Under the pieces are notes generated by a model, which saw only the letters and a list, made by a program, of their open reading frames with translations, was not told the DNA's origin and did no database searches. 64,000 nt of DNA, from the IMG/VR virus record IMGVR_UViG_3300025910_000007, positions 20,484 through 84,483 of that record. The stretch is one strand, 5' to 3'. The number at the start of each line of letters is the position of its first letter. Positions within the stretch are counted from its first letter, which is position 1. This DNA is from a virus. Of the stretch, positions 1-49,461 are shown piece by piece. A program made the position numbers and the translations under genes.

Positions 1-618
1 CAGTTCAGTACCAGACAGTTCGATGCCCTTGTCGGCATGTTCCTTCAGCACCTTCTCGGCGATGACATCGTCGTCCCCGTTCAGGGACGTTTCGCTTACG
101 GTCAGCTTCTTGAAGGATTCGCCCAACTTGTAACACAGTGTCTTGAGTCGAGCATTCCACGGCCGTTTCTGACCGCGTTCCCACGGCTGAAGTTTGGGGT
201 CCAGCAATCCAGCAAAACGCCAGATCGCACCCGCAGTCTGAGCACGGGCAACGTCGATATGGGCCAGCAGCCCCGCGGCGATCACCGCGTCTACCCCGGC
301 GATGCTCATGGCCCAACGGCCCAATGGGCGGGCCTGCGCGAATTCCCGCAGCACCCGGGCTGATTCTCTTTCCAGTCGCTCCAGCCGCTGCTTCATCTCC
401 GTAATGAGGACCGGATCGGCAAGGATATCGGTACTGCGTTCATGTGCCGACTCCTTGTTGCGGGCGCCGACACGCAGTTTCTGGATGCCGTAGTACATGC
501 CTACGGCTGCGGCCATCTGTTCGCGGTCGAACGTGTGAGCTTCAGCCAGCTGGTCCTTGGTGTACCGCGCCGTTTCCGGCTCCATCAGCAGCGGGGCGGT
601 TCCGTTCGTCGTCTTCAT
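1..618 (-). CDS. Tas-like (TasA-type) Nop-domain / IS110-related RNA-binding protein, 3' end outside the window
   Basis: Not in the ORF track because it runs off the edge. Hand translation from ATG 618 (SD CAGGAG upstream) is open for 206 codons: MKTTNG...MYYGIQKLRVGARN...GRWAMSIAGVDAVIAAGLLAHIDVARAQTAGAIWRFAGLLDP...GQKRPWNARLKTLCYKLGESFKK. This resembles the IS110 Transposase_20/Nop-fold segment; no N-terminal RuvC/DEDD domain is visible. It lies directly downstream of a 36-nt dual-repeat array. Confidence 0.85.
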   Translation of the reverse strand, partial: MKTTNGTAPLLMEPETARYTKDQLAEAHTFDREQMAAAVGMYYGIQKLRVGARNKESAHERSTDILADPVLITEMKQRLERLERESARVLREFAQARPLGRWAMSIAGVDAVIAAGLLAHIDVARAQTAGAIWRFAGLLDPKLQPWERGQKRPWNARLKTLCYKLGESFKKLTVSETSLNGDDDVIAEKVLKEHADKGIELSGTEL

Positions 619-6544: not shown

Positions 6545-7544
6545 CGCGGCCGCGAACCACTTCGAGACACGCCCAGACCAGTCCGTTGAACCCGTTGCGG
6601 CCAGCGTTGTACATGGGATCGCGGAACGTCTCCAGTATCAACCCCGCTGTGCCCGCAGATTTGACGTCCTTTGCCTTCATTGCAGTATCCGCTGCGTTGG
6701 CCATCACCAGCCGCCGCACCATCTCGGGGTCTTCGCCGCCTTCCTTGACGTCCTTCAGTATCTTCGCCACCGCGTCCCATCTGCCTTGTTGCCAGAGCAA
6801 TGCTTTGACCAGATCGAACGCCTTTTTCTGTACGCCTTCAGGCGCCAGCGCGGCCAGTCGTTCAGCGTCATCAGTGTATCGCAATGCTTTTTGCAGATCG
6901 TTGAGTGCGGTGCGGGCACTGCCTTCCGCTCGTTGCACGATTTGATCGATCAGCTGTGATTTGACGGGTAGTCCTTCCTTGTCCGCAATCGTTTTGACCA
7001 GCGTCGTCAGGTCCGTAATGCTCAGCGGTTTGAGAGCGATCACTTCGCAACGGGTACGGATAGCCTTGATGACCTTTTCGGGATCGGTGGTAGCCAGGAA
7101 GAAGTAGACGTGAGACGGAGTTTCTTCCAGCATGTTCAACAACGCTTGTTGTGCATGCGAAGTTCTGCTTAGCGACTGCACCTCCTCGAAAAACCAGATG
7201 CGACACTTGCCTGAACGGGGGGAAATGCCGATGCGCGATTTGATCCTGCGCGCTACGTTGATCGGTTCATCCCAAGCGGCGCAATCCTCTTCTGCGTAAT
7301 CAGCCTCAGCACACTGTAGCTTCTTTTGCATGATACGGACCATCGTGGTTTTCCCCGTACCTGATGGTCCAGTCAACATGATGGCATGCGGCACTTTGCG
7401 AGCCTTGACCATGTCAGATAGCTGCCGCACTGCGTCTGGCTGTCCGACGACGTCCGCCCATCGCGCCGGCCGCCATTTGCGGTAGAGCTGACTGGCCTCA
7501 TCCCCATTACGTTCAGTCTGCGGGGCAGTATTCGTTTCAGGCAT
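6537..7544 (-). CDS. dnaX: clamp loader, DNA polymerase III gamma/tau (DnaX)-like AAA+ ATPase
   Basis: LYRKWRP..W.DVVGQ, GPSGTGKTT, EEVQSLS, ALLNMLEETP, ATTDPEK, IRTRC, GSARTALNDL. Confidence 0.9.
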   Translation of the reverse strand: MPETNTAPQTERNGDEASQLYRKWRPARWADVVGQPDAVRQLSDMVKARKVPHAIMLTGPSGTGKTTMVRIMQKKLQCAEADYAEEDCAAWDEPINVARRIKSRIGISPRSGKCRIWFFEEVQSLSRTSHAQQALLNMLEETPSHVYFFLATTDPEKVIKAIRTRCEVIALKPLSITDLTTLVKTIADKEGLPVKSQLIDQIVQRAEGSARTALNDLQKALRYTDDAERLAALAPEGVQKKAFDLVKALLWQQGRWDAVAKILKDVKEGGEDPEMVRRLVMANAADTAMKAKDVKSAGTAGLILETFRDPMYNAGRNGFNGLVWACLEVVRGRGG

Positions 7545-8501
7545 CGTTGTCTCCAGTGGACTGTCGGTAGAGGCGTGCTGCATGTTCCACGTTCGCTACG
7601 GCCTGTCGATAGTACGACTTCTTCAGTTCTGCCCCAATGCCCTTTCTGCCATTCTTGACCGCCACGTAGATTTCGCTTCCCACTCCCATGAATGGAGAAA
7701 ACACCACATCATCGGGGGCAGACCACAAAGCCATGCAACGTTCGATCACATCCAATTGCAAGGGGCATATGTGACGGGCATCATCCTTGTCCTTGGCCTG
7801 CCGATAGGGCAGCACTCGCGTCTGGTCGATATCAAACCAGACCGGCGACGCATATTGCTGCCAGATCCAATGCGCCCGTTTGTTCTTGCGTGGGTCCGTA
7901 TGCATCTTCAACTGCTTCGGTACGGACCGCTCCCCGTAATAGACCGTCAGGCCGTTCTCGTTGTTGATCGGTTTGGCGTTTTCGCCGGGCTTGCGGAACG
8001 CCAGCAAATAGTCGGGTATGCCCGTCCGCACTATCGCGGAATCCTTGACCAGTTGTTGATGAGCCAGCCCAACCGCATGAGTGCGAACCGCCGCTATCAG
8101 CGGGTCTTTCCAAATGCAATGGCGGGAATGGAAGACAAATCCGTGCTCCTGAAACAGCCGGATGATGTCACCGCTAAAATCTTTCAGGCCGATTTCTTCG
8201 CCATTGCGTTTGTACGTTGGCAAGTCCATGCAATGTACCGCCACGATGCGGCCCGATGCCAGCGCCCGAAACAGTTCGGCAGCCAGATAGCCAAACTGCG
8301 TCAGGAATTCCTTGTAGGATCGGCAATTGCTCAGGTCGCGGGGGTCATCGCTGTATGAGTACAAGTCGAAAAAAACGGCGGCGAAAAGATGGAAAATCCT
8401 ACTGATTCCGCCGGCACTCCTTTCAGAATATCCATGCAGTCGCCACAATATAGGGCGTACTGAGGAGTGATTGTTTGTTTGTAGACATTGGCTATTGACA
8501 T
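7537..8501 (-). CDS. DNA N4-C/N6-A methyltransferase, frameshifted at a T7 tract just after the SPPF motif
   Basis: ATG 8501 with SD gives MSIANVY...YCGDCMDILKGVPAESVGFSIFSPPF, then the frame breaks at 8369-8375. The other frame continues DLYSYSDDPRDLSN...HICPLQLDVIERC...VFSPFMGVGSE (SAM-binding motif). Confidence 0.85.
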
Positions 8502-9859
8502 GAATCCCTCTTATTCAACCATGCCGGTACTTCCATGATTTGTTGCGCCACACCGTTAGCAGAGTTATCGCGCAATACCTGATTGATGCTGGCGCAAATG
8601 CCAGCATACATCTCGCAGATTTGCCGTTCCTTGCGCAGCATATTGGCCGCTACCTTGCCTTCTGCTTCAGTATGAACCAGCCGCACATTGACACGATTCT
8701 TCTGCCCAAATCGCCAGCACCGCCGCAGTGCCTGATAGTATTGTTCCACGCTATGCGTTGGAAAGTAACTCACGTCTGCGCAATGCTGCCAGTTCAGGCC
8801 GAAACTGGCGATCTTGGGCTTCGTCACCAGCGCCCGTATCTGGCCGCTGGTGAACGCCATTAGTTTCTCTTCCTTTTCCTCATCACGGTCAGCACCGCTA
8901 ACCTGTACCGCTCCGGGGATGAATCGTTCTAATAGCGCCGCTTCCTTGTTGAGCTGACACCAGGCAAGAACGGGCCGGTCTCTTGGTAGTAGTTCAGCTA
9001 CCTTCTGGCAGCGTCGTTCCGCCGTTCGTTTCTTTTCTTCGCGCTGCTCGGCCAGAGTATTCGCCTGATAAGGGAAAAAACCATTGCGGAAATCATTGGG
9101 CAGTACGACTCGTTCCGCAACCAATTCGGGTAAGATGAATGCACCGTCGGCGTAGCCCAGATCAGAAGGTAGCCGTACCGCTCGTGCCCATCCTGACATC
9201 CATTCCCAGAAGCGTGTACGGGCATGTCCCTTTAACGCCCAATGCTGCGTATCTTCCCCACCGTTGGTGAAGAACATGCCCAGCATTTGCCCACGAGGCA
9301 TGATGCCCAATGCTTCAGACAGCGAACCAATCTCCATGTGATCGTTGGGGGCAGGAGTAGCGGTACAGCCCAAACGATACGGAACCTTCGTCATGAATTC
9401 AGTAACAACTCGCCGTGTTTTGCCGTCGAAATTCTTGATGCAGCTCAGTTCATCACCGACAAAGCCCTGAAAATCAGTAGGGCGGTAATGGTGCAATTGC
9501 TCGTAATTGGTGACGTTGATCCCGCGATGCAATGCTCCGCCCTTGACGCGATGAGCAATCATGCCGAAACGTTCGGCCTCCTGAACGAACTGCCGTCCTA
9601 CAGCCAAAGGTGTCGCAATTAGAATATTGCTGTTGGTATGTCGTACCACGTTTTCAGACCAGACCAATGATAGAAGTGTTTTGCCTAGGCCGCAATCGGC
9701 GAGGGCCGCTGCCCAGCCCTGACGAATTGACCACTCCGCCAGATACTTTTGAAAATCAAAGAGACAGTCCGGTAAGAACGTCGGGGCAAATCCATGCCGA
9801 CGTCCTTGAACGGATTTGTGTTTGAGGAAAGCAGCGTATTCCCCGTTGGTATTTTTCAT
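8492..9859 (-). CDS. SF2 (SNF2-like) helicase
   Basis: ADCGLGKT, GDELS, TATPAPND, FGLNWQ, QALRRCWRFGQ. Confidence 0.9.
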   Translation of the reverse strand: MKNTNGEYAAFLKHKSVQGRRHGFAPTFLPDCLFDFQKYLAEWSIRQGWAAALADCGLGKTLLSLVWSENVVRHTNSNILIATPLAVGRQFVQEAERFGMIAHRVKGGALHRGINVTNYEQLHHYRPTDFQGFVGDELSCIKNFDGKTRRVVTEFMTKVPYRLGCTATPAPNDHMEIGSLSEALGIMPRGQMLGMFFTNGGEDTQHWALKGHARTRFWEWMSGWARAVRLPSDLGYADGAFILPELVAERVVLPNDFRNGFFPYQANTLAEQREEKKRTAERRCQKVAELLPRDRPVLAWCQLNKEAALLERFIPGAVQVSGADRDEEKEEKLMAFTSGQIRALVTKPKIASFGLNWQHCADVSYFPTHSVEQYYQALRRCWRFGQKNRVNVRLVHTEAEGKVAANMLRKERQICEMYAGICASINQVLRDNSANGVAQQIMEVPAWLNKRDSCQ

Positions 9860-17388: not shown

Positions 17389-17571
17389 TTATTTCGTTTT
17401 CCTACTCTGTACATAATGACGCAATCGCAGCTTTTGATCCTGCATCCGATTGGTTATCAGGTAGTATGAGAGCATGAATACCCGACGCCCCCCCCGTAAC
17501 ACAATCTCCGGTTCACCAACCAGCTTCCGTCCGGGTAGGGCGCCGCAGCTGCCCGAGTAAAACAGGATCAT
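17389..17571 (-). CDS. micro-ORF unit G of the DpdA-tail paralog array (intact; G8 tract in frame)
   Basis: MILFYSGSCGALPGRKLVGEPEIVLRGGRRVFMLSYYLITN...; G8 at 17488-17495. Confidence 0.75.
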   Translation of the reverse strand: MILFYSGSCGALPGRKLVGEPEIVLRGGRRVFMLSYYLITNRMQDQKLRLRHYVQSRKTK

Positions 17572-17730
17572 GCGTCATCTTTCCGAAGCGATAGTTTTGC
17601 ATCTGTCCACTACCCTCTTCTTTCGGACAAGAAATCAGGTAGTACGACAACATCAATGCAGCGCCCCCCCAAGGACGTCTTCTGGTTCCAGATCTTTGTT
17701 GCCGTTACTGCCTGAGTAGAACAGAATCAC
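17513..17730 (-). CDS. micro-ORF unit F (out of frame at a G7 tract)
   Basis: GTG start: MILFYSGSNGNKDLEPEDVLGG / shift at 17664-17670 / AALMLSYYLISCPKEEGSGQMQNYRF... Confidence 0.7.
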
Positions 17731-17912
17731 GCGGGTAACTTCTTCCGCATACGGCGATAGCGACGGAAGCGGCCCTGCTGCATTTTCACCGCGGCCTGTC
17801 CTGAGAGCATATGATAGGTGAGCATGAAATCGCCTTTGCGCAACACCAGCTCAGGATCACATCGCGTGATCTTCAGCGTCCCGTCGCCGTTTCCCGAGAA
17901 AAAAATACGAAT
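17727..17912 (-). CDS. micro-ORF unit E (no canonical start; ATT start or fused to unit D)
   Basis: IRIFFSGNGDGTLKITRCDPELVLRKGDFMLTYHMLSGQAAVKMQQGRFRRYRRMRKKLPA*; the stop overlaps the GTG of unit F. Confidence 0.65.
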   Translation of the reverse strand: MRIFFSGNGDGTLKITRCDPELVLRKGDFMLTYHMLSGQAAVKMQQGRFRRYRRMRKKLPA

Positions 17913-18076
17913 AACTTTCCCTCTTCTGTTTGCATACCAGCCGAAAACGGGGCTCTGGCCTACGTTTGCCTACTGAGTTGACAGCTGTCAGCATCAGCGT
18001 AGCCGCAGCCCCGAAGTATCGTTCAGGATCAGTGGTATGGTCTCCCCCCCCCGTCGCCACTGTAGAAAATTACCAC
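17857..18076 (-). CDS. micro-ORF unit D (out of frame at a G9 tract)
   Basis: GTG start: MVIFYSGDGG / shift at 18044-18052 / GDHTTDPERYFGAAATLMLTAVNSVGKRRPEPRFRLV... Confidence 0.7.
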
Positions 18077-18252
18077 GGCCGCTTACTCTGCTTGCGATGA
18101 AATATGCGACGCATGATCTTTTTACCAAATGCTGACGATTTGCCACTGGCGTAAATATCGTAATAGGTGCAGAGCAGACAAGGAACTGTTCGCGACCGTC
18201 GCACCATCGCAATGTCAATAGGTCGATGAACTCCAGCAATGAACATAATCAT
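18070..18252 (-). CDS. micro-ORF unit C (intact, most divergent, no G tract)
   Basis: MIMFIAGVHRPIDIAMVRRSRTVPCLLCTYYDIY...basic tail. Confidence 0.65.
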   Translation of the reverse strand: MIMFIAGVHRPIDIAMVRRSRTVPCLLCTYYDIYASGKSSAFGKKIMRRIFHRKQSKRPW

Positions 18253-18282
18253 CGTGCGATCTCAATCAAGTGCTGAAAATTA

Positions 18283-18468
18283 TCATGGTTGTTTGGCAAT
18301 GTGTTTTCTTTTCAACCACCGGCGTAGGCGGATACGTTGCTTGAACCAAATACGAAGACGGGATTGCAGCTCTTCTTGTCGATTATCGAAATAAGAGAAC
18401 ATCATGTGGCGCCCCCCCTATTTTCGGCTGTTTGGTTCGCAGCCTATGCCAGAAAAAAATAAGATCAT
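18283..18468 (-). pseudogene. micro-ORF unit B (in-frame TAG at the start of a G7 tract)
   Basis: MILFFSGIGCEPNSRK*GGRHMMFSYFDNRQEELQSRLRIWF...; ATGA overlap with unit A. Confidence 0.65.
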
Positions 18469-18634
18469 TTCACTGTCCGCTGCTTTCTATGATCCCGCCA
18501 CACCCACCGTTGCTTGCTTCCTATGTTCATGTATGTCAGTAGCAACGGCAAAGACGCCCCCCCCCGTTCGCCTCTTCATCAAAAGCCCTCGCCCACTTAC
18601 CAGCCGATTCGGGGCCAGAATAAAATAGGATCAT
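18465..18634 (-). CDS. micro-ORF unit A (out of frame at a G9 tract)
   Basis: MILFYSGPESAGKWARAFDEEANGG / shift at 18557-18565 / ASLPLLLTYMNIGSKQRWVWRDHRKQRTVK*. Confidence 0.7.
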
Positions 18635-18640
18635 GGAAGA

Positions 18641-19540
18641 TCACTTGCCATTACCAGAGAAGAATCCAACGGCCGGACGGCGATTGGCTGGCTTGAATGG
18701 CCAGGGATATTCCGATAGCCACTTGCGCAGCCCCTCGAAAAACAACAGGTTGGCAATCTTGCGCTCGCTGTGGCGATTGATGACGCCATGTTCGATAACG
18801 TTGCCGTCCTTGTCGTTCTTGCCCAGCGGTACGCCAATCTGTTTCAGCCATTCCCGCACGATCCGTTGTTCACCGGGTGACAGCGTCGAGTAGTGCTTAC
18901 CCTTGGCTCGCGTAGGGGCGTCCTGCGACATGGTAATTTGGTAGGGCTCTGTTTCGTATGTGAACCTACCGCCACGCTTGTGCGGTAGCAAGATACCGCC
19001 AAACGCCCCTACCTTCGTCCACGTAGCAGAATCCACGCTCCACCACGGATAGCGCAACAAACATTCGTATCCGGTGACGGCGAATCCATGCAGTTTTACT
19101 TTCGGTAGCCGCTTTGGAGTGTCGCAAACGAAATCAAACACGCGGTCTAACCACGTTCGACATGCTGGCGATCCGAAGCTTCCTACTAGGCCGCCGATGG
19201 CGATGAACTCATAACCACGTCGAACGTAGCGACGCAGCCATTTCAGATCGGTGCGAAAATGTACCACCGGAACCGGCGCCAGTCCGTGTTCTTTTTCGAG
19301 GTACTGCTGATTACGCCATGTTAGTTCTGGTTCTGGGATCGCGTCCACATTGGCGTAATAGTCGATGTACTTTCGGTATTTCTTGACGAAGGCCGCGTAC
19401 TCATCCATGTACCGCCAGAATTCTTTGGTGTCGTAATAACTCCAGGGTGATTTTCCGTGCTTCTTTCCGTACTTCGTGGCGGCTGTCCAAAGAGAGAAGC
19501 TGCCACTGTCCAGAAAAAACAAGCCGTTTTCCGTAGTCAT
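18641..19540 (-). CDS. DpdA/TGT-like 7-deazaguanine transglycosylase paralog 2
   Basis: FFLDSGSFS, YYANVDAI, PVPVVH, IAIGGLV, KLHGFA, PWWSVDSATW; adjacent to folE/queCDE. Confidence 0.8.
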   Translation of the reverse strand: MTTENGLFFLDSGSFSLWTAATKYGKKHGKSPWSYYDTKEFWRYMDEYAAFVKKYRKYIDYYANVDAIPEPELTWRNQQYLEKEHGLAPVPVVHFRTDLKWLRRYVRRGYEFIAIGGLVGSFGSPACRTWLDRVFDFVCDTPKRLPKVKLHGFAVTGYECLLRYPWWSVDSATWTKVGAFGGILLPHKRGGRFTYETEPYQITMSQDAPTRAKGKHYSTLSPGEQRIVREWLKQIGVPLGKNDKDGNVIEHGVINRHSERKIANLLFFEGLRKWLSEYPWPFKPANRRPAVGFFSGNGK

Positions 19541-19571
19541 TTCATCTGCCGTGAAATAGATTTGTGCGGCC

Positions 19572-20510
19572 CTAGAACGATACCGAGGCTCCGGACAGCC
19601 TCGCAAGCAAGAGTCTATCAAATCGGGGACACGGTATGTCGAAAAAAGATAGCATGATGCGAGCTTTTGTTTTCAGCACCGTTTCAGGTTGTCCGCCTTT
19701 GGCTCCGGCGCCACTGTAGTAAATCTTCAGGGGCTTATAGCTTCCATCGGGTTGCAGCTTTTGCAATTGTTTCCGCAGCCATTCATAATATTTAAGGTAG
19801 CATGCGTACCAAACTCTCGGATTAGCTAAATCACCTGCGGAGAACCCTAGATGATCGAGCCATCGCAAAACAGCTCTACGATGAAGCGGAGGCAGCGTGT
19901 CGAGATGGCCTTGATTACTTTGTTTGGTATTACCGACTTTTATGATGATTGCATCCTTTTCGGCTGTCCATACACCTTTTTTCGTTAGCGGTAACACTAA
20001 ATATCCGCGGCTACCAAGATGCGCCCAACGTACTGTATCGACTGAATGCCAAGGAAACTGAGCCATCGACCGATGTCCTCCGATTCCAAAACCATGCACT
20101 TTCACTTGCGGGATTCCGCGGCTATTGCACAGCTGATCGAAAACCAGACGAATCCACTCCTTACTCGTTCTTCTAGTTGTCGAGGCTGCGATACCGCCCA
20201 GACCTATGTATCGGTAGCCCCGATTTATGTAGTGTCGAATCCACTGCAAATCTGTTCCTAGGTGTATGACTGGAACGGGAGAAAGCCCGTGCTCTTTTTC
20301 GAGATATTGCTGGTGGTCCCAAGACAACTTTGCGTCAAACATCACGTCGACATTAGCGTAGTAATCAATCGCGATTTCATTGGCATGAATAAAAGCCGCG
20401 TATTCATCCATGTACGTCTTGTAACTGGAGGCCGTCGCTTTCGATTTCTGCCAAAGTGAAAATGCGCCGGAATCTAAGAAATGTGAACGGGGCGGCCAGA
20501 ATTCGGTCAT
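19572..20510 (-). CDS. DpdA/TGT-like 7-deazaguanine transglycosylase paralog 1, with a C-terminal IYYSG...PE.VL...MLSFF module
   Basis: HFLDSGAFS, YYANVDV, PVPVIHLG, YIGLGG, KVHGFG, PWHSVD. Confidence 0.8.
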   Translation of the reverse strand: MTEFWPPRSHFLDSGAFSLWQKSKATASSYKTYMDEYAAFIHANEIAIDYYANVDVMFDAKLSWDHQQYLEKEHGLSPVPVIHLGTDLQWIRHYINRGYRYIGLGGIAASTTRRTSKEWIRLVFDQLCNSRGIPQVKVHGFGIGGHRSMAQFPWHSVDTVRWAHLGSRGYLVLPLTKKGVWTAEKDAIIIKVGNTKQSNQGHLDTLPPLHRRAVLRWLDHLGFSAGDLANPRVWYACYLKYYEWLRKQLQKLQPDGSYKPLKIYYSGAGAKGGQPETVLKTKARIMLSFFDIPCPRFDRLLLARLSGASVSF

Positions 20511-20514
20511 GGTT

Positions 20515-21096
20515 TCACCCGCGGATGAGACTGAGCAGTTCTTGGCGCACGACGGATTCACGAAAAGCCCCTGTCAATGACGATGTTACCAGTTCCGAAT
20601 GCTGTTTCTGTACACCGCGACAAACCATGCAGAAATGAGTCGCTTCCAGTATACAAGCGGCCCCCAGCGGCTTCAGATGCTCGTCCAGCGCAGCAGTCAC
20701 TTGCTGACATAGACGTTCCTGTATCTGCAAACGGCGAGCATAGATGTCGAGAATTCGTGCCAGTTTGCTTACTCCAATCACTCGTTTGTCTGGGATGTAT
20801 GCGATGTGGGCGCTACCGAAAAATGGCTGTAGGTGATGTTCGCAAACAGAATGGAATTCGACATTGCGTAACACTACCATCTCGTCGCAGGCCCCATCCT
20901 CGAACACCTTCAGCACGTCTTCGGGTTTTTGTTTGTAACCTGCGAACAGCTCATCGTAACTGCGCAGCACGCGATCTGGGGTATCTCGCAGCCCCTCGCG
21001 CTCGGGGTCGTCCCCAATGTACGTCAACAACGACAGAACGGCTTGACGGGCCTGACAGTACCAGATGGTATCGCCGGCCGGCTTCGGTTCATCCAT
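20515..21096 (-). CDS. folE: GTP cyclohydrolase I
   Basis: REGLRDTPDRV, SVCEHHLQPF, GVSKLAR, RRLQIQERL, HFCMVCRGV. Confidence 0.96.
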   Translation of the reverse strand: MDEPKPAGDTIWYCQARQAVLSLLTYIGDDPEREGLRDTPDRVLRSYDELFAGYKQKPEDVLKVFEDGACDEMVVLRNVEFHSVCEHHLQPFFGSAHIAYIPDKRVIGVSKLARILDIYARRLQIQERLCQQVTAALDEHLKPLGAACILEATHFCMVCRGVQKQHSELVTSSLTGAFRESVVRQELLSLIRG

Positions 21097-21103
21097 GCGT
21101 TCC

Positions 21104-21784
21104 TCATTTCGACAGCAATTCACAAGACAGGTAGGACAGCGGGTCTTCTGTGTTGTTGGCCGCGAACGCGGTAAGCCGCTCCTGGCAGCTTCCGCACTTG
21201 CCGCACGCGAGCGGCTGCGCCTTGTAGCAGGTGCGTGTCAGTGCGAACGGAACGTTCAGAAGCAGCCCCTCGCGCACGATGTCGTCCTTGGTAAGTTGCA
21301 GAAATGGCACTCGTAAGGAAACCTTGCCATCAGTCGCAGCAGCAATGGCTTCTCGTGCAGCGTCGATGAATCGTGGGCGACAGTCCGGATAGATGAAATG
21401 ATCCCCCGCATGAACGCCTAGATACATGGTCGCCGCTCCGACGCTCTCAGCAAGACCAGCAAGGACAGATGCGAAAATCAGGTTGCGACAGGGGACCACT
21501 GTTTGGCGCATGCTCTCTGCTTCGTAGTGTCCCTCCGGTATATCGCCACCACTCAACAACAAATCAGAACGGAATCCCGCCATGACACCAGATAAATCGA
21601 TGAGACGAAAAGACACCTCGTAGTAGCCCGCGATCTGCGATGCCGCTTGATTTTCGTATTGATTGTGCTTGGACCCATAGTAGAAGGCGACGGCCATCAG
21701 ATCGTTGGGACGGATATCTCGCAGCACTTGGGCTAGCAGCACAGTGGAATCCAAGCCGCCAGACAGCGAAACTATCGCTCGCAT
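21104..21784 (-). CDS. queC: 7-cyano-7-deazaguanine synthase
   Basis: SLSGGLDST, VPCRNLIF, YPDCRP, TCY...CGKCGSC. Confidence 0.96.
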   Translation of the reverse strand: MRAIVSLSGGLDSTVLLAQVLRDIRPNDLMAVAFYYGSKHNQYENQAASQIAGYYEVSFRLIDLSGVMAGFRSDLLLSGGDIPEGHYEAESMRQTVVPCRNLIFASVLAGLAESVGAATMYLGVHAGDHFIYPDCRPRFIDAAREAIAAATDGKVSLRVPFLQLTKDDIVREGLLLNVPFALTRTCYKAQPLACGKCGSCQERLTAFAANNTEDPLSYLSCELLSK

Positions 21785-21786
21785 AA

Positions 21787-22515
21787 CTACTCCAATCCAA
21801 CGATCTTGTGTAACTGAAGACAGAGGGTATAGCCAAAGCGTAGACAGCTGTCGACCGCTGCTTTGGTGTTGGCTGCATTCTTGACAGGATCTTGCTCATC
21901 GCAGGGCTGGACATAGACCTTGTCATGGTATTGATGCAGTGGTAAAGGACGGAAGGGGCGACAGCCGTTAAGTGTCACAGACGGCAGCCCGTCAGCCTCG
22001 ACCTGTCCGGCACTGATGACGTATTTCCATGCGTCGACGCGGCGAACGATCTCGGGTGCCACCTTTGGCGTCTTGGGGGAGCAGACGAAGTGCAACTTGG
22101 GGTGATCGTACAAAGTGGAGAGCGATGGATCGTACAACGTGCCATTCGTCTCGATTTGCACGACGAAGTTGGCCAGTGCTGTACCAATGAAATCTCCGAG
22201 CCGCTGCCGTAGCGGTTCCCCTCCGGTAATGACGATCAGGTCACGGTCGGGATGATTCGTCTGGTAGGGGCCGCGCAGTTGCTGCAACACTTCGATAATC
22301 AACTGGAATTTCGACAGAAGCCGACGACCGCTCGTGTAGTCTGTGTCGCAGAGCGGGCACTGGAGATTGCAGCCAGCCAGACGAATAAACACAGCCGGAC
22401 GTCCAGCAAATGGCCCCTCGCCCTGAACCGTGTAGAATACCGAATGGACGTCAAGCAATCCTTCGGGATGCGGCTCACTCTTTTCGATGGGCTGGACATT
22501 CGGCAGGGTAATCAC
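21787..22515 (-). CDS. queE: 7-carboxy-7-deazaguanine synthase (radical SAM)
   Basis: FYTVQGEG, CNLQCPLCDT, ITGGEP, IETNG, SPK, QLHK. Confidence 0.95.
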   Translation of the reverse strand: MITLPNVQPIEKSEPHPEGLLDVHSVFYTVQGEGPFAGRPAVFIRLAGCNLQCPLCDTDYTSGRRLLSKFQLIIEVLQQLRGPYQTNHPDRDLIVITGGEPLRQRLGDFIGTALANFVVQIETNGTLYDPSLSTLYDHPKLHFVCSPKTPKVAPEIVRRVDAWKYVISAGQVEADGLPSVTLNGCRPFRPLPLHQYHDKVYVQPCDEQDPVKNAANTKAAVDSCLRFGYTLCLQLHKIVGLE

Positions 22516-22691
22516 TGGGCTTCCTCCTGCTGCTGCTTCATGCGGTCCCGCACTTCTTGCCGCAGGATGATGACGTCATCAGGGGCGACGAACCCCAGGC
22601 GAACGCGCTTACCGATCACCTCCAGCACCGTGACCGTGATACCACCGTCCACGACAATCTGTTCGCCTTCTTTGCGACTCAGAACAAGCAT
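22512..22691 (-). CDS. csrA: carbon storage regulator CsrA/RsmA family RNA-binding protein
   Basis: Below the ORF-track size cutoff. Hand translation MLVLSRKEGEQIVVDGGITVTVLEVIGKRVRLGFVAPDDVIILRQEVRDRMKQQQEEAQ; SD AAGGAGGT; GTGA overlap with queE. Confidence 0.92.
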   Translation of the reverse strand: MLVLSRKEGEQIVVDGGITVTVLEVIGKRVRLGFVAPDDVIILRQEVRDRMKQQQEEAQ

Positions 22692-22716
22692 GATTTACCT
22701 CCTTGCTAGGACTGAT

Positions 22717-23145
22717 CTAGTATCCATGTCCGGGATAATCGGCGCAACAGGCCGGCGTTTCCCAGAGCCGCACGTTCGTTACTTCGAGCCCGCTAACCGT
22801 CAGCAGCTCTTGGCATTTTTCGTACAGTTCTCGCGCCATGTTTTCGGCGGTCGGATTGCCGTACTTGACGGCGTAAGGCGGACGTTCCTCGGTTGCTGCT
22901 AAATGGGATAGCTGCGGATCGGCGGCATTCAACAGCAGCGCATGGTCCCAATTGGCGTCCAGCCAGCCCCCAATCAACTCTTTGATCTTGCCAAAGTCGA
23001 CCACCATGCCCAGCCGATCCAAGCCGTCGGCCCGTACCGTTACCTCAGCAACGCCGCGGTGACCGTGCAGCGAACGGCACTTGCCGCCGTGCCCCAGCAC
23101 GCGGTGACCGTAGTCGAATTCCAGGCGGCGGGTAACGGTGGTCAT
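22717..23145 (-). CDS. queD: 6-carboxytetrahydropterin synthase
   Basis: FDYGHR, CRSLHGH, VDFG, DH, PTAENMA, WETP. Confidence 0.95.
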   Translation of the reverse strand: MTTVTRRLEFDYGHRVLGHGGKCRSLHGHRGVAEVTVRADGLDRLGMVVDFGKIKELIGGWLDANWDHALLLNAADPQLSHLAATEERPPYAVKYGNPTAENMARELYEKCQELLTVSGLEVTNVRLWETPACCADYPGHGY

Positions 23146-23618
23146 GTCCCCCTCGAAAATAATCCGCCAGATCGATGCGAGAGCGTTGATTTGACTGCTG
23201 CCAGCATTTTGCCGATGGGAAGGCCCACGAATGGAAAGACAAGATCAACGGAGCTGTTCGCGAACGCGGCTCGAATTGCTGCGCAATATTCCTTGCCCCC
23301 CAAACCAATCACCTGCTCGAATCTATGCAGTTTCATCCGCAAGACCTGCTCGCAAAGCAACCGAACCGCTATCGGAGATGATGATGGTCGGTTGAAAGAG
23401 ACATCGTAGGGGCCGGGAATCATGAAATCGGGCGAGATGAATCCGTATTTGGCGCTGAGTATCATCCAAACATCGCCGAACTTTTCGGCGTAACGGCGAT
23501 TCAGGCGAAACGGCCCGCCAATGTAGGCCGACTTCGCCTGAATCGCCCCGCGCCGGGGAGCGACGTCCCATGCCTTTGCCTTGCCGCATGGGACTACCAC
23601 TAGCGTCCCGCTTCCCAT
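23142..23618 (-). CDS. DUF6884-like protein
   Basis: VVPCGKAK...Y.G..F...WMILSAKYGFI...YD...GGKEY...GLPIGK. Confidence 0.7.
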   Translation of the reverse strand: MGSGTLVVVPCGKAKAWDVAPRRGAIQAKSAYIGGPFRLNRRYAEKFGDVWMILSAKYGFISPDFMIPGPYDVSFNRPSSSPIAVRLLCEQVLRMKLHRFEQVIGLGGKEYCAAIRAAFANSSVDLVFPFVGLPIGKMLAAVKSTLSHRSGGLFSRGT

Positions 23619-47275: not shown

Positions 47276-49461
47276 CGCTCACGCTGGAACTGGAGAATGG
47301 CATTGCGGTCGTACCGGACGATCCCGCTGAGTATCATCCGCTCATTTGCCAGGATCGTCTGTCTGAGTTCGTCCGAGAATTTTGGTCCGAGATACCCGGT
47401 GCTGGCAAATTGATATGGAACTGGCACATGGATGTGCTATGCGATGAGTTGCAGACCGTTGCTGAGCGGCTGATCGCCGGACTGCCCAAAGAACATGATA
47501 CCGTTTTCAACATCAGCCCCGGCACGTCCAAGTCGTCCATCTGTTCCATTTTGTTCCCTGCTTGGTTATGGACGCGGATGCCCCATGCCCGCATTTTGAC
47601 CGCCAGTCATACTTCGGATTTGGCGTTGGATCTGGCCGCCAAAAGCCGCGATGTTGTCCGCAGTGAAAAGTATCGGGCATGGTTTCCTGACATCGACATT
47701 CGCGAAGATACGGACAGCAAGGGGCATTATCGCAATTCGCATGGTGGGGAGCGGAAGGTCTGCACCGTATCTGGTGTGTCGCCGATGGGCTTTCATGCAC
47801 ATGCCATCATTGTGGATGATCCGATTGACCCGAAGAAGGTGTTGTCTGTTGCTGAACTGGAGACAGCGAAGAAGTTCGTGGACGAGGTAATTCCGTCCCG
47901 CAAAGTGGATAAGTTGGTGTCCGTGACATTCTTGGTTATGCAACGATTGGGATTGGGCGATCCTTCAGATGTGATGCTGAAGGGAGCAGCACGCGAGGGG
48001 GCGTCTCCCGTTCGTCAAGTTTGTTTGCCTGCTGAATTGGTGAAGGGCGATGATGGGGCGTTCGCCGATACGGGCGTGGAGCCAAAGGAACTGGCCCGCC
48101 GTTACATCGAAGGTCTGATGGACCCGATACGGTTGGGTCCGCAGGTATTGCGGGATTTTCATTCTCGCGGCGAGCTGTACTACAGCACGCAATTTCTTCA
48201 GCGTCCGTATGCCCGCAGTGGTGGAATGTTCCATGAAGACTGGTTTTCCAAGAGAATCAAGGCGGCTCCTTACAAATGCAGACGGGTTCGTTCTTGGGAT
48301 CGCGCTCAGACGGAAAGCGGCGGCTGTGCGACAGCTGGGACGTTGTTAGGTATGGACGAGGTCAAGGCGTTGTATGTTGAGGATGTCGTCAAGGGTCATT
48401 GGGCGCCCGATCAGCGCAACGCCATGATTTTGGCTACGGCATTGCGCGACCGCATTCGCTATGGCCCCAAGTATGAGCCCATCATACTGGTTGAGAATGA
48501 AGGGGGCAGTACGTCCGGGGATGCCAATTTGGCGCTGGCCCGCAAGTTGCATGGCTTTCGCGTTATTTTTGAGCATCCTACTGGCAAGAAGGAAATCCGC
48601 GCCGATCCGTGGGCTTCGCAGTTGGCTGCTGGTAACGTTTGGTTAGTAGACAACGGCGAAAGGGAAGGGCAGGGCAAGGCGACGTGGGACATCAATGATT
48701 ACATCGCAGAGCATTTGGCCTTTCCTGTCGGAGCCGCTTTGAAGGATCAGGTAGATTCTTCCAGTGCCGGCAGCACTTGGTTGGCTAATCAGATTCGCAA
48801 TGGCCCTGCCATGCGGACTCTCCCCTACCGCAATCGCAAGAAAAATGAGCTGGGCGTCATCGTCTGCACTGAGGATGAACTGGCGGTTACATTGATAGAG
48901 CAGCAGTGCATGTTGGTTCATGTCGTCGATCCTTCGCCCGCAGTCGAGGAGGTGATGTGCAATGAGGCTTCGGCGGCCGCATCCACAGGCGTGCGATTGT
49001 CAGGAGTGTCGGTTGAAGTGAATGGGGGGGTGGGGCAGTCCGCACTTGTTCGCAACCCCGCGGCGGCCTTGTTGGCCGAAGCTCCGCCCCCTCATGCTTT
49101 ACCGAATCTGTTGGGTCATGTAACGCTGACGTTCGCTGCCATTGATCCGGTCGATTATCAGGACCGTTGGGCTGAGCCCATCCCGCCGTGGAACTTGCCT
49201 GCGGATAAACTCATCATGTCGCGTGATGACGGCCGCAAGCTGTGGGGTTTTCTGTCCAAACGTCGCGATATCCCGCCGGAGGTTGTGGTGTTCTGCGATG
49301 ATGGGGACGGCCGCGCCCTTTCGTTGGCAGTGGCATTCTGTGAGATCATGCGATATCCTTTGGAAACGATCCATCGGCCGAATGAAGAAGCAAAGGTAAC
49401 GGCAGCGCCGATCAAGCACGTGGCGGATATGGCGAAAACTTGTAGGGCATTGGTGATGTAG
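47272..49461 (+). CDS. terL: terminase large subunit with a ~220-aa C-terminal extension
   Basis: WNWHMDVLC, NISPGTSKS, IIVDDP, VMQRL, QRP, RSWDRA, DQVDS. Confidence 0.92.
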   Translation: MTLTLELENGIAVVPDDPAEYHPLICQDRLSEFVREFWSEIPGAGKLIWNWHMDVLCDELQTVAERLIAGLPKEHDTVFNISPGTSKSSICSILFPAWLWTRMPHARILTASHTSDLALDLAAKSRDVVRSEKYRAWFPDIDIREDTDSKGHYRNSHGGERKVCTVSGVSPMGFHAHAIIVDDPIDPKKVLSVAELETAKKFVDEVIPSRKVDKLVSVTFLVMQRLGLGDPSDVMLKGAAREGASPVRQVCLPAELVKGDDGAFADTGVEPKELARRYIEGLMDPIRLGPQVLRDFHSRGELYYSTQFLQRPYARSGGMFHEDWFSKRIKAAPYKCRRVRSWDRAQTESGGCATAGTLLGMDEVKALYVEDVVKGHWAPDQRNAMILATALRDRIRYGPKYEPIILVENEGGSTSGDANLALARKLHGFRVIFEHPTGKKEIRADPWASQLAAGNVWLVDNGEREGQGKATWDINDYIAEHLAFPVGAALKDQVDSSSAGSTWLANQIRNGPAMRTLPYRNRKKNELGVIVCTEDELAVTLIEQQCMLVHVVDPSPAVEEVMCNEASAAASTGVRLSGVSVEVNGGVGQSALVRNPAAALLAEAPPPHALPNLLGHVTLTFAAIDPVDYQDRWAEPIPPWNLPADKLIMSRDDGRKLWGFLSKRRDIPPEVVVFCDDGDGRALSLAVAFCEIMRYPLETIHRPNEEAKVTAAPIKHVADMAKTCRALVM

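What the first reader, a model, noticed from the sequence alone, without database searches (positions are those of the whole stretch)
17389..20510. Array of seven divergent micro-ORFs that copy the tail module of a DpdA-like enzyme: candidate split transglycosylase with interchangeable subunits
Seen in sequence: the 1.25 kb after the two DpdA/TGT-like genes, mostly missed by the ORF track, is a head-to-tail run of seven ~60-codon units, most coupled by overlapping start/stop codons. They share the pattern hh(F/Y)(Y/F)SG-x(n)-[E/D]PE-x-VL-x(4-6)-(M/L)L(S/T)Y-...-RF plus a basic tail (MILFYSGP, MILFFSGI, MIMFIAGV, MVIFYSGD, IRIFFSGN, MILFYSGS, MILFYSGS). The same module is the C-terminus of paralog 1 (LKIYYSGAGAKGGQPETVLKTKARIMLSFFDIPCPRF). 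Paralog 2 lacks it and ends in only GFFSGNGK. Both enzymes begin just a few residues before the DSG(A/S)F motif. Established: in TGT-fold TIM barrels other strands precede the DSG strand, and from memory related phage proteins start with an IYFAG...LLSY segment. Inference: paralog 1 is circularly permuted, paralog 2 is split, and the array supplies alternative beta-alpha-beta pieces with variable loops that complete the barrel and change which guanines or substrates are modified. That would be a combinatorial DNA-modification specificity system. I know of no description of one.
Basis: partly seen in the sequence, partly recalled or inferred. Interest (0 to 1): 0.93.

Follow-up and report, generated by a model that had tools for sequence, protein, structure and literature searches.

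The report
Split phage DpdA with switchable mini-subunits
This uncultured phage encodes its DNA-modifying enzyme DpdA without the first two strands of its barrel fold and supplies that piece from seven diverged mini-genes, several interrupted at slippery poly-G runs. I did not find this layout in the DpdA papers I searched, and it may let one enzyme core change which DNA sites it modifies.

Summary
After two DpdA-like genes lies a head-to-tail array of seven ~60-codon units plus a 6-codon stump.

Each unit encodes strand 1, a variable loop, strand 2 and a basic helix of the TGT/DpdA barrel. Both enzyme cores lack this piece at their N-terminus; paralog 1 carries it at its C-terminus.

- **Family trait:** in the close subfamily, 32 of 34 related loci carry at least one such module. 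It is usually a free ~60-aa gene right after the core, sometimes N-fused or C-fused.
- **Size of the family:** a profile search found 607 protein clusters, mostly free-standing. Pfam and PHROGs have no model for them.
- **Arrays elsewhere:** arrays of 2-7 units recur next to a single core.
- **State of this array:** only U3 and U7 are intact. U1, U4 and U6 are frameshifted at G9, G9 and G7 runs, U2 has a TAG, and U5 has no canonical start.
- **Poly-G runs:** five of the window's six G/C runs of 7 or more lie in this 1.25 kb. Runs also occur in module genes of at least seven unrelated loci, both in and out of frame.

Split and permuted architecture: well supported. Changed specificity and phase variation: inferred, not tested.

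This scan reported split DpdA mini-subunit arrays before in four other genomes. I found no description in the DpdA papers I searched.

The parts
19749..20561 (-). DpdA paralog 1, barrel core. It starts at strand 3 (HFLDSGAFS). The ATG start is at 20510; GTG at 20561 is an alternative.
   Evidence: phrog_887 E 3.6e-36. 39% identical to paralog 2. AF2 core pLDDT 80-97, VIA Z 13.2 to TGT/QTRT1.
19572..19748 (-). Module fused in frame to the C-terminus of paralog 1 (LKIYYSGAGAKGGQPETVLKTKARIMLSFFDIPCPRF...).
   Evidence: Module HMM i-E 4.5e-13. Natural C-fused homologs: P0221, P0236, P0241, P0242, L029, L043. The AF2 placement is of low confidence.
18641..19540 (-). DpdA paralog 2, barrel core without strands 1-2. 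ATG start (MTTENGLFFLDSGSF); the TTG at 19621 is less likely.
   Evidence: phrog_887 E 4e-40. 706 homologs at E<=1e-10. The family-typical C-terminus is present.
18465..18634 (-). Unit 1. MILFYSGPESAGKWARAFDEEANGGG, then a frame change at G9 (18557-18565), then ..ASLPLLLTYMNIGSKQRWVWRDHRKQRTVK. G10 or G7 restores a 55-56 aa ORF whose TGA overlaps U2's ATG.
18283..18468 (-). Unit 2. MILFFSGIGCEPNSRK, then an in-frame TAG (18418-20) touching G7 (18412-18418), then GGRHMMFSYFDNRQEELQSRLRIWFKQRIRLRRWLKRKHIAKQP. There is a T7 run at 18453-18459.
   Evidence: No run length removes the TAG.
18266..18286 (-). Stump of a further unit: ATG ATA ATT TTC AGC ACT TGA (MIIFST*). Its ATG overlaps U2's stop.
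18070..18252 (-). Unit 3. Intact 60-aa ORF with no homopolymer run. It is the most divergent unit (MIMFIAG...LLCTYY...basic tail).
   Evidence: the ORF listing. Module HMM i-E 9e-9.
17857..18076 (-). Unit 4. GTG start overlapping U3's TAA. VVIFYSGDGGG, then a frame change at G9 (18044-18052), then DHTTDPERYFGAAATLMLTAVNSVGKRRPEPRFRLVCKQKRE... G8 or G11 restores the frame.
17727..17921 (-). Unit 5. (GK)VIRIFFSGNGDGTLKITRCDPELVLRKGDFMLTYHML...RFRRYRRMRKKLPA. The frame is open, but there is no ATG/GTG/TTG before strand 1. A T7 run (17899-17905) sits on the FF codons.
   Evidence: i-E 1.9e-13
17513..17730 (-). Unit 6. GTG start overlapping U5's TGA. VILFYSGSNGNKDLEPEDVLGG, then a frame change at G7 (17664-17670), then AALMLSYYLISCPKEEGSGQMQNYRFGK... 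G8 or G5 restores the frame.
17389..17571 (-). Unit 7. Intact 60-aa ORF with an in-frame G8 (17488-17495) encoding RGG just before strand 2. It is 63% identical to the N-terminal module of homolog P0042.
   Evidence: (i-E 1.7e-12)
20515..23618 (-). Upstream preQ0 pathway: folE 20515-21123, queC 21104-21784, queE 21787-22515, csrA 22512-22691, queD 22717-23145, DUF6884 23142-23618.
   Evidence: NCBIfam and Pfam hits

Best explanation
The locus encodes a two-part DNA 7-deazaguanine transglycosylase (DpdA).

**Shown**
- The catalytic TIM-barrel cores, paralogs 1 and 2, begin at strand 3 (the FLDSG catalytic motif). They lack strands 1-2 at the N-terminus.
- Each unit of the downstream array encodes exactly that missing piece: strand 1 (MxIFYSG), a variable loop, a short helix (PExVL), strand 2 (MLSY/TF) and a basic helix.
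- In relatives the same piece is fused N-terminally, fused C-terminally, or, most often, encoded as a free ~60-aa gene translationally coupled to the core.

**Inferred, about 0.85**
- The free mini-protein docks onto the core in trans and completes the barrel. Paralog 1 does the same in cis, as a circular permutant.

**Inferred, about 0.4**
- In bacterial DpdA the matching elements are the strand1/helix1 insertion (Ins1) and the strand2/helix2 insertion (Ins2). They line the DNA-binding surface and the active-site rim. The diverged units would therefore give one core several alternative DNA-contact surfaces, that is, different target motifs or efficiencies.

**Inferred, about 0.5**
- The G7-G9 runs inside five units slip during replication. 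Individual units would then switch between in-frame and out-of-frame in the phage population, making this a contingency locus for DNA hypermodification.
- As assembled, U7 (and U3) are ON and U1, U4 and U6 are OFF. U2 is dead or reduced to its second half.
For: **The module is barrel strands 1-2**
- P0042 (N-fused, 56% identical to paralog 2) folds with strands at 3-7 and 31-35, helices at 23-29 and 46-59, then HFLDSG at 73-76. pLDDT is 88 and pTM 0.87.
- Model residues 1..343 align to bacterial DpdA 7UI4 residues 3..411 (Z 18.9, 274 aligned, rmsd 3.6). They also align to Z. mobilis TGT residues 39..370 (Z 18.6).
- PMC10164549 says of bacterial DpdA that Ins1 helps form the dsDNA-binding surface. 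[quoted passage not shown]

**Rosetta-stone evidence**
- N-fused: P0004, P0008, P0042 and others; L011, L015, L035, L068.
- C-fused: paralog 1, L029, L043, P0221, P0236, P0242.
- Fused at both ends: P0241. Three modules in tandem: P0123.

**Co-occurrence**
- 32 of 34 close-subfamily viral loci carry at least one module. The other two contigs end at the core.
- 34 distinct free module ORFs, nearly all starting at an ATG directly on strand 1.
- The module profile finds 607 clusters in 1.84 billion representatives, 99 of them at E<=1e-10. Nearly all of the best 150 are free-standing proteins of 47-103 aa.
- A cultured example exists: ZHS_65 + ZHS_62. hhalign between the close and the distant module profiles gives probability 90%, E 1.6e-6.

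**Arrays**
- L012 has 7 units, L005 has 5, L021 has 3, and L017 and L064 have 2 each. L045 and L046 have about 6. Each array sits beside a single core.
- Units within one array are only 25-45% identical.

**Poly-G**
- 5 of the window's 6 runs of 7 or more lie in the array.
- All three frameshifts sit exactly at runs, and the downstream frames stay open up to the coupled stops.
- An independent Logan assembly gives identical run lengths.
- Other runs of 7 or more in the window are in frame.
- G7-G9 runs occur in module genes of L041, L098, L107, L116, L135, L138 and L147. L041 and L138 are out of frame. L116's run splits an otherwise fused gene.
- In 140 non-redundant loci, window excluded, 10 of 18 coding-strand G runs of 7 or more fall in the 20% module zone, p = 0.001.
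- P0015 (MWGGQVPCY..) against its 72%-identical ortholog in L107 (MRVYYVGGQVPCY..) fits a one-G difference at the same run.
Against: - Physical association of core and mini-protein was never modelled or measured.
- AF2 left paralog 1's own C-terminal module unplaced (pLDDT below 50).
- Some family members carry other N-terminal domains instead of the module: a ~70-aa helical domain, or DUF6884. So the core may tolerate other partners.
- No read-level data on tract-length heterogeneity exist. Only contigs were available, at about 9x depth and probably from the source sample.
- U2's TAG, U5's missing start and the stump look like decay rather than switching.
- Most related arrays (L005, L012) have no homopolymer runs at all, so switching is not needed for the array to exist.
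- No data link module identity to a modification motif.
Confidence: 0.6

Rival explanations
1. Mostly dead array. One or two units (U7, U3) serve as the structural small subunit. The rest are decaying leftovers of tandem duplication and recombination between dpdA genes. The homopolymer frameshifts are ordinary inactivating mutations, and no combinatorial or switching function exists.
For: Four of seven units are interrupted, U5 has no canonical start, and a 6-codon stump lies between U2 and U3. U2's TAG cannot be reverted by slippage. Most relatives need only one module.
Against: All three frameshifts fall exactly at G runs. The out-of-frame second halves keep the family pattern and stay open up to the coupled stop/start sites. 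Arrays of 5-7 fully intact, diverged units exist in L005 and L012. G runs recur in module genes of unrelated phages with 33-59% GC.
Confidence: 0.2
2. Assembly or sequencing artefact. The true phage has all run-bearing units in frame, and the array is a constitutively co-expressed set of small subunits. The apparent OFF states are homopolymer length errors at low coverage.
For: Depth is only about 8.8x. G9 runs are error-prone in library PCR and sequencing. Another gene, a DNA methyltransferase, is also broken at a T7 run.
Against: Two assemblies give identical lengths, though probably from the same reads. Other runs of 7-8 in the window are in frame. U2's TAG is not a length error. Out-of-frame runs in L041 and L138 come from other samples and assemblies.
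Confidence: 0.12
3. The mini-proteins do not complete the barrel. They are independent small basic DNA-binding or regulatory proteins derived from the DpdA N-terminus, for example dominant-negative regulators or decoys. The truncated cores would fold by themselves or with other partners.
For: The tail is strongly basic. Some cores carry unrelated N-terminal domains. P0241 and L011/L068 have more modules than one barrel can hold.
Against: In the P0042 model strands 1 and 2 align with barrel strands 1-2 of solved DpdA and TGT. A six-stranded open barrel lacking the strands next to the catalytic FLDSG strand is unlikely to be stable. The core-module linkage is strict, and fusions occur at both termini.
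Confidence: 0.08
4. Programmed recoding. Ribosomal frameshifting or transcriptional slippage on the G runs yields a fixed ratio of short and full-length unit products from one fixed DNA sequence.
For: The runs lie inside coding sequence, and both frames are open after them.
Against: The shifts needed differ in direction: +1 for U1 and U6, -1 for U4. No stimulatory structure was looked for or seen. Related loci carry the same kind of run in frame. From my own knowledge, transcriptional slippage is best documented for A/T runs.
Confidence: 0.05

Closest known systems
Phage DpdA1 (Enterobacteria phage 9g gp03, CAjan, iggy; phrog_887)
   Same: Homologous TGT-fold enzyme: tblastn 34% identity over residues 25-263. 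It sits in the same gene neighbourhood with folE, queD, queE, queC, clamp and polymerase. Known members insert preQ0 at short motifs: GA and GGC in CAjan, GA in iggy (PMC10484667).
   Different: 9g DpdA is one polypeptide with strands 1-2 at its N-terminus (FQIYMAAV...NILESWHY...KIFLDSGAFS). Here the piece is moved to the C-terminus (paralog 1) or encoded as separate multi-copy genes (paralog 2).
Bacterial DpdA of the Dpd system (PDB 7UI4, PMC10164549)
   Same: Best structural match of the family: Z 18.9 for homolog P0042. It has the same barrel and the same FLDSG-type catalytic strand.
   Different: About 16% identity. It is monomeric and complete, works with DpdB, and has the CXCX2CX22H zinc site. 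That site is absent here: no CxCxxC motif and only one conserved Cys column.
Edwardsiella phage vB_EpM_ZHS, ZHS_65 ('queuine tRNA-ribosyltransferase') + ZHS_62 ('hypothetical protein')
   Same: A cultured phage with a core that starts at FFLDSGAYS and a free 59-aa module gene, MKIFLAG...ILVSFFFY.
   Different: It has a single module about 770 nt downstream, separated from the core by two other ORFs. It has no array and no homopolymer runs. The record does not annotate it as a subunit.
Type I R-M specificity subunits (HsdS) and phase-variable methyltransferases (phasevarions); from my own knowledge
   Same: Works alike, if the inference holds: one catalytic machine with exchangeable or switchable parts that set the DNA target, and simple-repeat tracts that turn them on and off.
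   Different: No homology. Here the exchangeable part would be two strands of the catalytic barrel itself rather than a separate target-recognition domain. The owner is a phage, and the chemistry is base exchange rather than methylation.
Poly-G contingency loci of Campylobacter, Neisseria and Haemophilus; from my own knowledge
   Same: G7-G9 runs inside coding sequence, clustered in paralogous genes, with a mix of in-frame and out-of-frame states.
   Different: Those are bacterial surface and modification genes with measured switching. Here length variation is only inferred.
Two-subunit or split TGTs (eukaryotic QTRT1/QTRT2; split archaeosine TGT); from my own knowledge
   Same: TGT-family enzymes that work as more than one polypeptide.
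   Different: Those pair two whole barrels, or separate the barrel from accessory domains. None, to my knowledge, splits the barrel between strands 2 and 3.

Membership tests
TGT/DpdA superfamily (7-deazaguanine transglycosylases) | TGT-type TIM-barrel fold | tested here: met
   Paralog 1 model: VIA Z 13.2, 231-233 residues aligned to QTRT1/TGT. Homolog P0042: Z 18.9 to DpdA 7UI4. Foldseek top hits are all TGT or DpdA.
TGT/DpdA superfamily (7-deazaguanine transglycosylases) | Catalytic Asp in the (F/L)LDSG motif | tested here: met
   D11-S12-G13 of paralog 2 are invariant in 26 aligned sequences, paralog 1 included.
TGT/DpdA superfamily (7-deazaguanine transglycosylases) | Second catalytic Asp (the nucleophile of TGT) | tested here: inconclusive
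   An invariant WSVDS Asp (D170 of paralog 2) is a candidate. Its equivalence to the TGT/DpdA nucleophile was not checked residue by residue.
TGT/DpdA superfamily (7-deazaguanine transglycosylases) | Structural zinc site CXCX2CX22H (bacterial DpdA and TGTs, PMC10164549) | tested here: not met
   No CxCxxC motif in either paralog, and only one conserved Cys column in the family alignment. By eye, 9g DpdA lacks it too.
TGT/DpdA superfamily (7-deazaguanine transglycosylases) | Complete (beta/alpha)8 barrel in one chain, in the canonical strand order | tested here: not met
   Both cores start at strand 3. Strands 1-2 are at the C-terminus (paralog 1) or in separate ORFs.
Phage DpdA (phrog_887) within a preQ0 cluster | Sequence match to phage DpdA, and linkage to folE/queD/queE/queC | tested here: met
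   phrog_887 E 4e-36 and 4e-40. tblastn hits to 232 phage records including 9g. FolE, QueC, QueE and QueD by NCBIfam.
Phage DpdA (phrog_887) within a preQ0 cluster | Inserts a 7-deazaguanine into DNA | not testable with these tools
   Needs LC-MS of phage or plasmid DNA.
Free-standing DpdA strand-1/strand-2 module proteins (unnamed family defined here) | ~50-90 aa, M-x-I-(F/Y)-(Y/F)-S-G at residue 1, (M/L)L(S/T)(F/Y) strand, basic tail, gene adjacent to a dpdA core | tested here: met
   U3, U5 and U7, and the halves of U1, U4 and U6, match the HMM. There are 34 free ORFs in relatives and 607 clusters in the representative library. Pfam and PHROGs have no model.
Free-standing DpdA strand-1/strand-2 module proteins (unnamed family defined here) | Binds the core and completes the barrel in trans | not testable with these tools
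The support is indirect: fusions and co-occurrence.
Phase-variable contingency locus | Homopolymer runs inside coding sequence, enriched against the genome background | tested here: met
   5 of 6 G/C runs of 7 or more in the window lie in 1.25 kb. Across 140 other loci, 10 of 18 runs fall in the module zone, p = 0.001.
Phase-variable contingency locus | Both in-frame and out-of-frame states, with intact downstream frames | tested here: met
   U7 is in frame. U1, U4 and U6 are one base off, with open second halves. L041 and L138 are off; L098, L107, L135 and L147 are on.
Phase-variable contingency locus | Tract-length variation within a population or between close isolates | tested here: inconclusive
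   Only contigs were available, one of them identical. No second copy of this phage could be reached. There is one indirect case between 72%-identical orthologs, P0015 and L107.

The most novel reading that the evidence does not exclude
A phage-encoded, phase-variable, combinatorial DNA-hypermodification system. One catalytic DpdA core is completed in trans by any of a library of diverged two-strand mini-subunits. Their variable loops set which guanines receive a 7-deazaguanine. Poly-G tracts switch individual subunits on and off, so each burst yields phages with different modification patterns. This would hedge against both classical restriction enzymes and modification-dependent defences.
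Probability: 0.3. Interest if true: 0.92.

Novelty: new variant of a known kind. Interest (0 to 1): 0.8.

Why it matters
**An open question becomes testable.** DpdA enzymes protect phage DNA from restriction and from Cas9 by replacing guanines at short motifs. What sets the motif is unknown: only GA/GGC for CAjan and GA for iggy have been mapped (PMC10484667). If the two-strand module carries the DNA-contact loops, nature has already done the domain-swap experiment many times. One can co-express a single core with different ~60-aa units and read the motif.

**A hidden subunit affects annotation.** At least 607 clusters have no Pfam or PHROG model. A missing small subunit might also bear on why some phage DpdAs did not work in heterologous tests; the 2023 study says its attempts with DpdA3 and DpdA4 in E. 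coli were unsuccessful.

**Protein-fold interest.** A TIM barrel that is naturally split between strands 2 and 3, and found in N-fused, C-fused and free forms, is a clean natural case of fragment complementation and circular permutation.

**Phage biology.** Poly-G switching of a DNA-modification gene in a phage would extend the contingency-locus idea from bacteria to their viruses.

Tried and rejected
I could not read the second contig (138 kb) that carries the same paralog 2, nor the DNA of P0015.

**Tests that gave nothing useful**
- The AF2 model of paralog 1 left the C-terminal module at pLDDT below 50. VIA ranges for that model (2..264 against TGT 32..379) give only first and last residues, so they do not show which strands are missing.
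- The Tandem Repeats Finder found no array, because the units are too diverged.
- A single-protein scan of viral contigs found nothing. The alignment-based scan worked.
- A profile search of PDB sequences found nothing.
- Pfam, PHROGs and NCBIfam have no model for the units.
- Exact 30-mer scans of the metagenome and viral collections found no other copy of this phage.

**Reads**
- Only Logan contigs were available. X1 is identical and is probably the source sample. X2 covers only 239 nt (18055-18293) and stops 3 nt from U4's G9. That proves nothing about heterogeneity.

**Readings considered and rejected**
- That 'VGFFSGNGK' is a module stump. It is the normal family C-terminus.
- That a suppressor tRNA rescues U2's TAG. 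The window's only tRNA is tRNA-Arg(CCT).

**Considered and not preferred**
- That paralog 1's C-terminal module is really paralog 2's N-terminal module cut off by a frameshift. The spacing would fit (about 42 codons to FLDSG). But the same spacing is expected for core-module-core order, and natural C-fusions exist.

Full report
**Setting.** The window is bases 20484-84483 of an 84.5-kb IMG/VR virus record, rated 96% complete by CheckV. A rhizosphere metagenome run holds the stretch and may be its source. All genes from 13.7 to 26 kb are on the minus strand. In transcription order they are:
- DUF6884, queD, csrA, queE, queC and folE;
- DpdA paralog 1, DpdA paralog 2 and the array;
- a 197-aa ORF, a clamp-like gene and a UDG/exonuclease gene.

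**Observation.** Both paralogs hit phrog_887 'queuine tRNA-ribosyltransferase' (E 4e-36 and 4e-40) and have no Pfam or NCBIfam hit. They are homologs of the DpdA of phage 9g, at 34% identity. Both begin a few residues before FLDSG.

Three-frame translation of 17389-18640 shows seven units plus a 6-codon stump. A module HMM built from N-terminal segments of homologs and the intact units finds all of them, and also finds the C-terminal 57 residues of paralog 1 (i-E 4.5e-13). Start/stop overlaps (ATGA, GTGA, GTGGTAA) link most neighbours. TRF sees nothing. The units share only 25-45% protein identity, and U7 is closer to the module of a foreign homolog (63% to P0042) than to any neighbour. So this is an old set of diverged paralogs, not a recent repeat.

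**State of the seven units.**

| Unit | State as assembled | What would restore it |
|---|---|---|
| U1 | breaks at a G9 run | G10 or G7 gives a 55-56-aa ORF whose TGA overlaps U2's ATG |
| U2 | in-frame TAG touching a G7 run | no run length removes it |
| U3 | intact, no run | - |
| U4 | breaks at a G9 run | G8 or G11 |
| U5 | open frame, no ATG/GTG/TTG before strand 1; holds a T7 run | - |
| U6 | breaks at a G7 run | G8 or G5 |
| U7 | intact, with an in-frame G8 | - |

In every broken unit the second half, read in the other frame, still shows the family pattern (MLSY/LLTY ... RF ... basic tail). It stays open up to its natural stop.

**What the module is.** The 120 best homologs of paralog 2 (53-63% identity, 706 at E<=1e-10) fall into clear architectures:
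- module + basic linker + core;
- core only, starting at SHFLDSG;
- cores whose called start lies at strand 2;
- cores with another ~70-aa N-terminal domain;
- cores fused to DUF6884.

All end ...PWPF..RRKGFGL. So paralog 2's 'VGFFSGNGK' is an ordinary C-terminus, not a stump.

In 80 related viral loci, a free 47-95-aa ORF starting with ATG directly on strand 1 lies immediately downstream of the core in about 30 loci. In the close subfamily, 32 of 34 loci carry at least one module, and the other two contigs end at the core. N-terminal fusions are L011, L015 (two in tandem), L035 and L068. C-terminal fusions are L029 and L043.

A profile of 36 free modules, searched against 1.84 billion representative proteins, finds 607 clusters (99 at E<=1e-10). 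Nearly all of the best 150 are free-standing proteins of 47-103 aa matched from at or near residue 1. The list also holds clear C-terminal fusions to full cores (P0221, P0236, P0242), one protein with a module at both ends (P0241) and one with three modules in tandem (P0123). Neither Pfam nor PHROGs has a model for these proteins.

More distant loci have an 'M-K-I-Y-L-A-G ... R-L-L-S-F-Y' version. This includes the cultured Edwardsiella phage vB_EpM_ZHS (ZHS_65 core, ZHS_62 module). Profile-profile comparison links the two versions at probability 90%, E 1.6e-6.

**Structure.** The N-fused homolog P0042 folds confidently (pLDDT 88, pTM 0.87). Its order is strand 3-7, loop, helix 23-29, strand 31-35, helices 36-41 and 46-59, then the HFLDSG strand at 73-76. 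The model aligns from residue 1 to bacterial DpdA 7UI4 residues 3..411 (Z 18.9) and to Z. mobilis TGT from residue 39 (Z 18.6). So the module is barrel strand 1, the strand1/helix1 insertion, strand 2 and the following helix.

The DpdA structure paper (PMC10164549) says Ins1 contributes to the positively charged dsDNA-binding surface. [quoted passage not shown]

For paralog 1 itself, the core is well modelled but the C-terminal module is not (pLDDT below 50). That alignment had few C-fused sequences. A complex of paralog 2 with U7 could not be predicted.

**Arrays.** Multi-copy arrays are not unique to this window:
- L012 has one module upstream and six downstream;
- L005 has five;
- L021 has three;
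- L017 and L064 have two each;
- L045 and L046 have about six.

In each case there is a single core within 5 kb. This window, with 7 free units, a stump and one fused module for two cores, is at the upper end.

**Poly-G.** Five of the six C/G runs of 7 or more in the 64 kb lie in the array, all as G on the coding strand. Two of the three A/T runs of 7 or more lie there too. The third (T7 on the coding strand) breaks a DNA methyltransferase right after its SPPF motif.

The runs in U1, U2, U6 and U7 sit at the same place, just before strand 2. U4's run follows strand 1. The window's other runs (C7 at 29301, G7 at 49024) are in frame. A Logan contig of the probable source run reproduces the whole 1451-nt stretch without a difference, at depth about 8.8. 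Contigs cannot show minority lengths.

Among the first 80 viral loci, module genes carry no G run of 7 or more, except L041 (33% GC). There a G9 right after MKVYFAGIPGGG puts the rest of an N-fused dpdA out of frame. Eighty further metagenome loci add more cases:
- L098: two G7 runs in two modules, both in frame.
- L107: G8 in GIRGGLPED and G7 in MRVYYVGGQV, both in frame.
- L116: G7 in a module, and G8 in the linker. The linker run turns a fused gene into a module ORF plus a core ORF.
- L135: G7 before strand 2, the same place as in U7.
- L138: G8 after MKIYLGGG, out of frame; G9 would restore it.
- L147: G7 after strand 2.

With the window excluded, 10 of 18 coding-strand G runs of 7 or more in 140 non-redundant loci fall in the 20% of sequence next to the core (binomial p = 0.001). 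For C runs the figure is 1 of 4.

P0015 begins MWGGQVPCY.., where its 72%-identical ortholog in L107 reads MRVYYVGGQVPCY... That is what one extra G at the same run would give. This is an inference, because I could not see P0015's DNA.

**Mechanism.**
- *Shown:* the cores lack strands 1-2. The units encode them. The same piece occurs N-fused, C-fused and free. The linkage to the core is near-obligate in the subfamily. Arrays recur. G runs are concentrated in module genes and coincide with every frameshift here.
- *Inferred, about 0.85:* the free unit completes the barrel in trans.
- *Inferred, about 0.4:* different units change DNA target choice, because they replace the elements that line the DNA surface and the active-site rim.
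- *Inferred, about 0.5:* the runs make unit expression heritably stochastic.

A further sequence-level point: in the ON form, U1's stop overlaps U2's start. In the assembled OFF form, U1 stops 68 nt before U2's start. So the state of one unit may also affect translational coupling to the next. This is speculation.

**Rivals.**
- Decay: U2's TAG, U5's start and the stump fit it. The exact coincidence of frameshifts with runs, and the intact second halves, do not.
- Homopolymer artefact: it cannot be excluded at 9x depth, but other runs are in frame, and out-of-frame runs recur in other assemblies.
- Independent small regulators: argued against by the structural mapping and the fusions.
- Programmed recoding: least likely.

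**Known and new.** The main DpdA papers do not mention a split, permuted or multi-subunit phage DpdA:
- Nat Commun 2019, PMC6884629;
- the 2023 'four additional derivatives' study;
- the DpdA structure paper;
- the iggy paper;
- a 2026 genome-mining preprint.

Within this scan, similar 'split DpdA with mini-subunit array' findings were reported for four other genomes, one with slippery repeats. Those are unreviewed AI notes that agree with what I found independently here. They are not extra evidence.

I class the locus as a new variant of a known kind: a DpdA, but split inside its barrel, with multi-copy and possibly switchable small subunits.

Noticed in passing
window 7537-8514 (-), T7 run at 8369-8375: A DNA methyltransferase (weak CcrM-like NCBIfam hits) is split at a T7 run right after FSPPF. 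The N-terminal part (MSIANVYK...FSPPFF) is in another frame than ...DLYSYSDDPRDLSN. T8 or T5 would join them. This is a second DNA-modification gene in the same phage broken at a homopolymer.
   Followed up: partly
window 22512-22691 (-): A 59-aa CsrA homolog (TIGR00202, E 2.5e-17, just under the cut-off) sits between queD and queE, overlapping queE's start.
   Followed up: partly
window 23142-23618 (-); P0017, P0041: A DUF6884 (PF21818) gene heads the preQ0/dpdA cluster. In homologs P0017 and P0041 the same domain is fused to the N-terminus of the DpdA core. This suggests DUF6884 works with DpdA.
   Followed up: partly
window 17857-17921 (-), T7 at 17899-17905: U4's restored frame runs through the start of U5. 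One T fewer in the T7 run would join U4's tail to U5's FFSGNG..., giving a two-module tandem protein like P0043, L015 or P0123. U5 has no start codon of its own.
   Followed up: no
L116:544-930: A G8 run in the linker (ELDGGG|) turns an N-fused dpdA into a module ORF plus a core ORF that starts at an ATG just before the run (MGGVRLIMNE..SHFLDSG). This shows how a single slip can convert fused forms into split forms.
   Followed up: partly
L046:1243-1967: An AT-rich phage has an array of about six modules. Some pieces lie in different frames around a (GA)n-like stretch (REREREF / ERERERI), a possible dinucleotide slippage site.
   Followed up: no
P0030-P0032, P0034, P0035, P0038, P0044, P0047 and others: Many close homologs of the core carry a different, unannotated ~70-aa N-terminal domain (..LRLADNPKY..PP.F......F...AW.LF..) in place of the module. 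P0030 has no Pfam hit.
   Followed up: no
P0241, P0123, L011, L068: Some proteins or loci have more modules than one barrel can use. P0241 has one at each end of the core, P0123 is three modules in tandem, and L011 and L068 have an N-fused module plus a free one. This hints at exchange or oligomeric use.
   Followed up: no
window 18055-18293 (run X2): A second rhizosphere sample from another study holds a 239-nt contig identical to U3 and the start of U4. It ends 3 nt before U4's G9 run.
   Followed up: no
L041:2792-3270: Fragments of a second DpdA-like core lie upstream of the frameshifted dpdA in this AT-rich phage. They may be a broken paralog.
   Followed up: no
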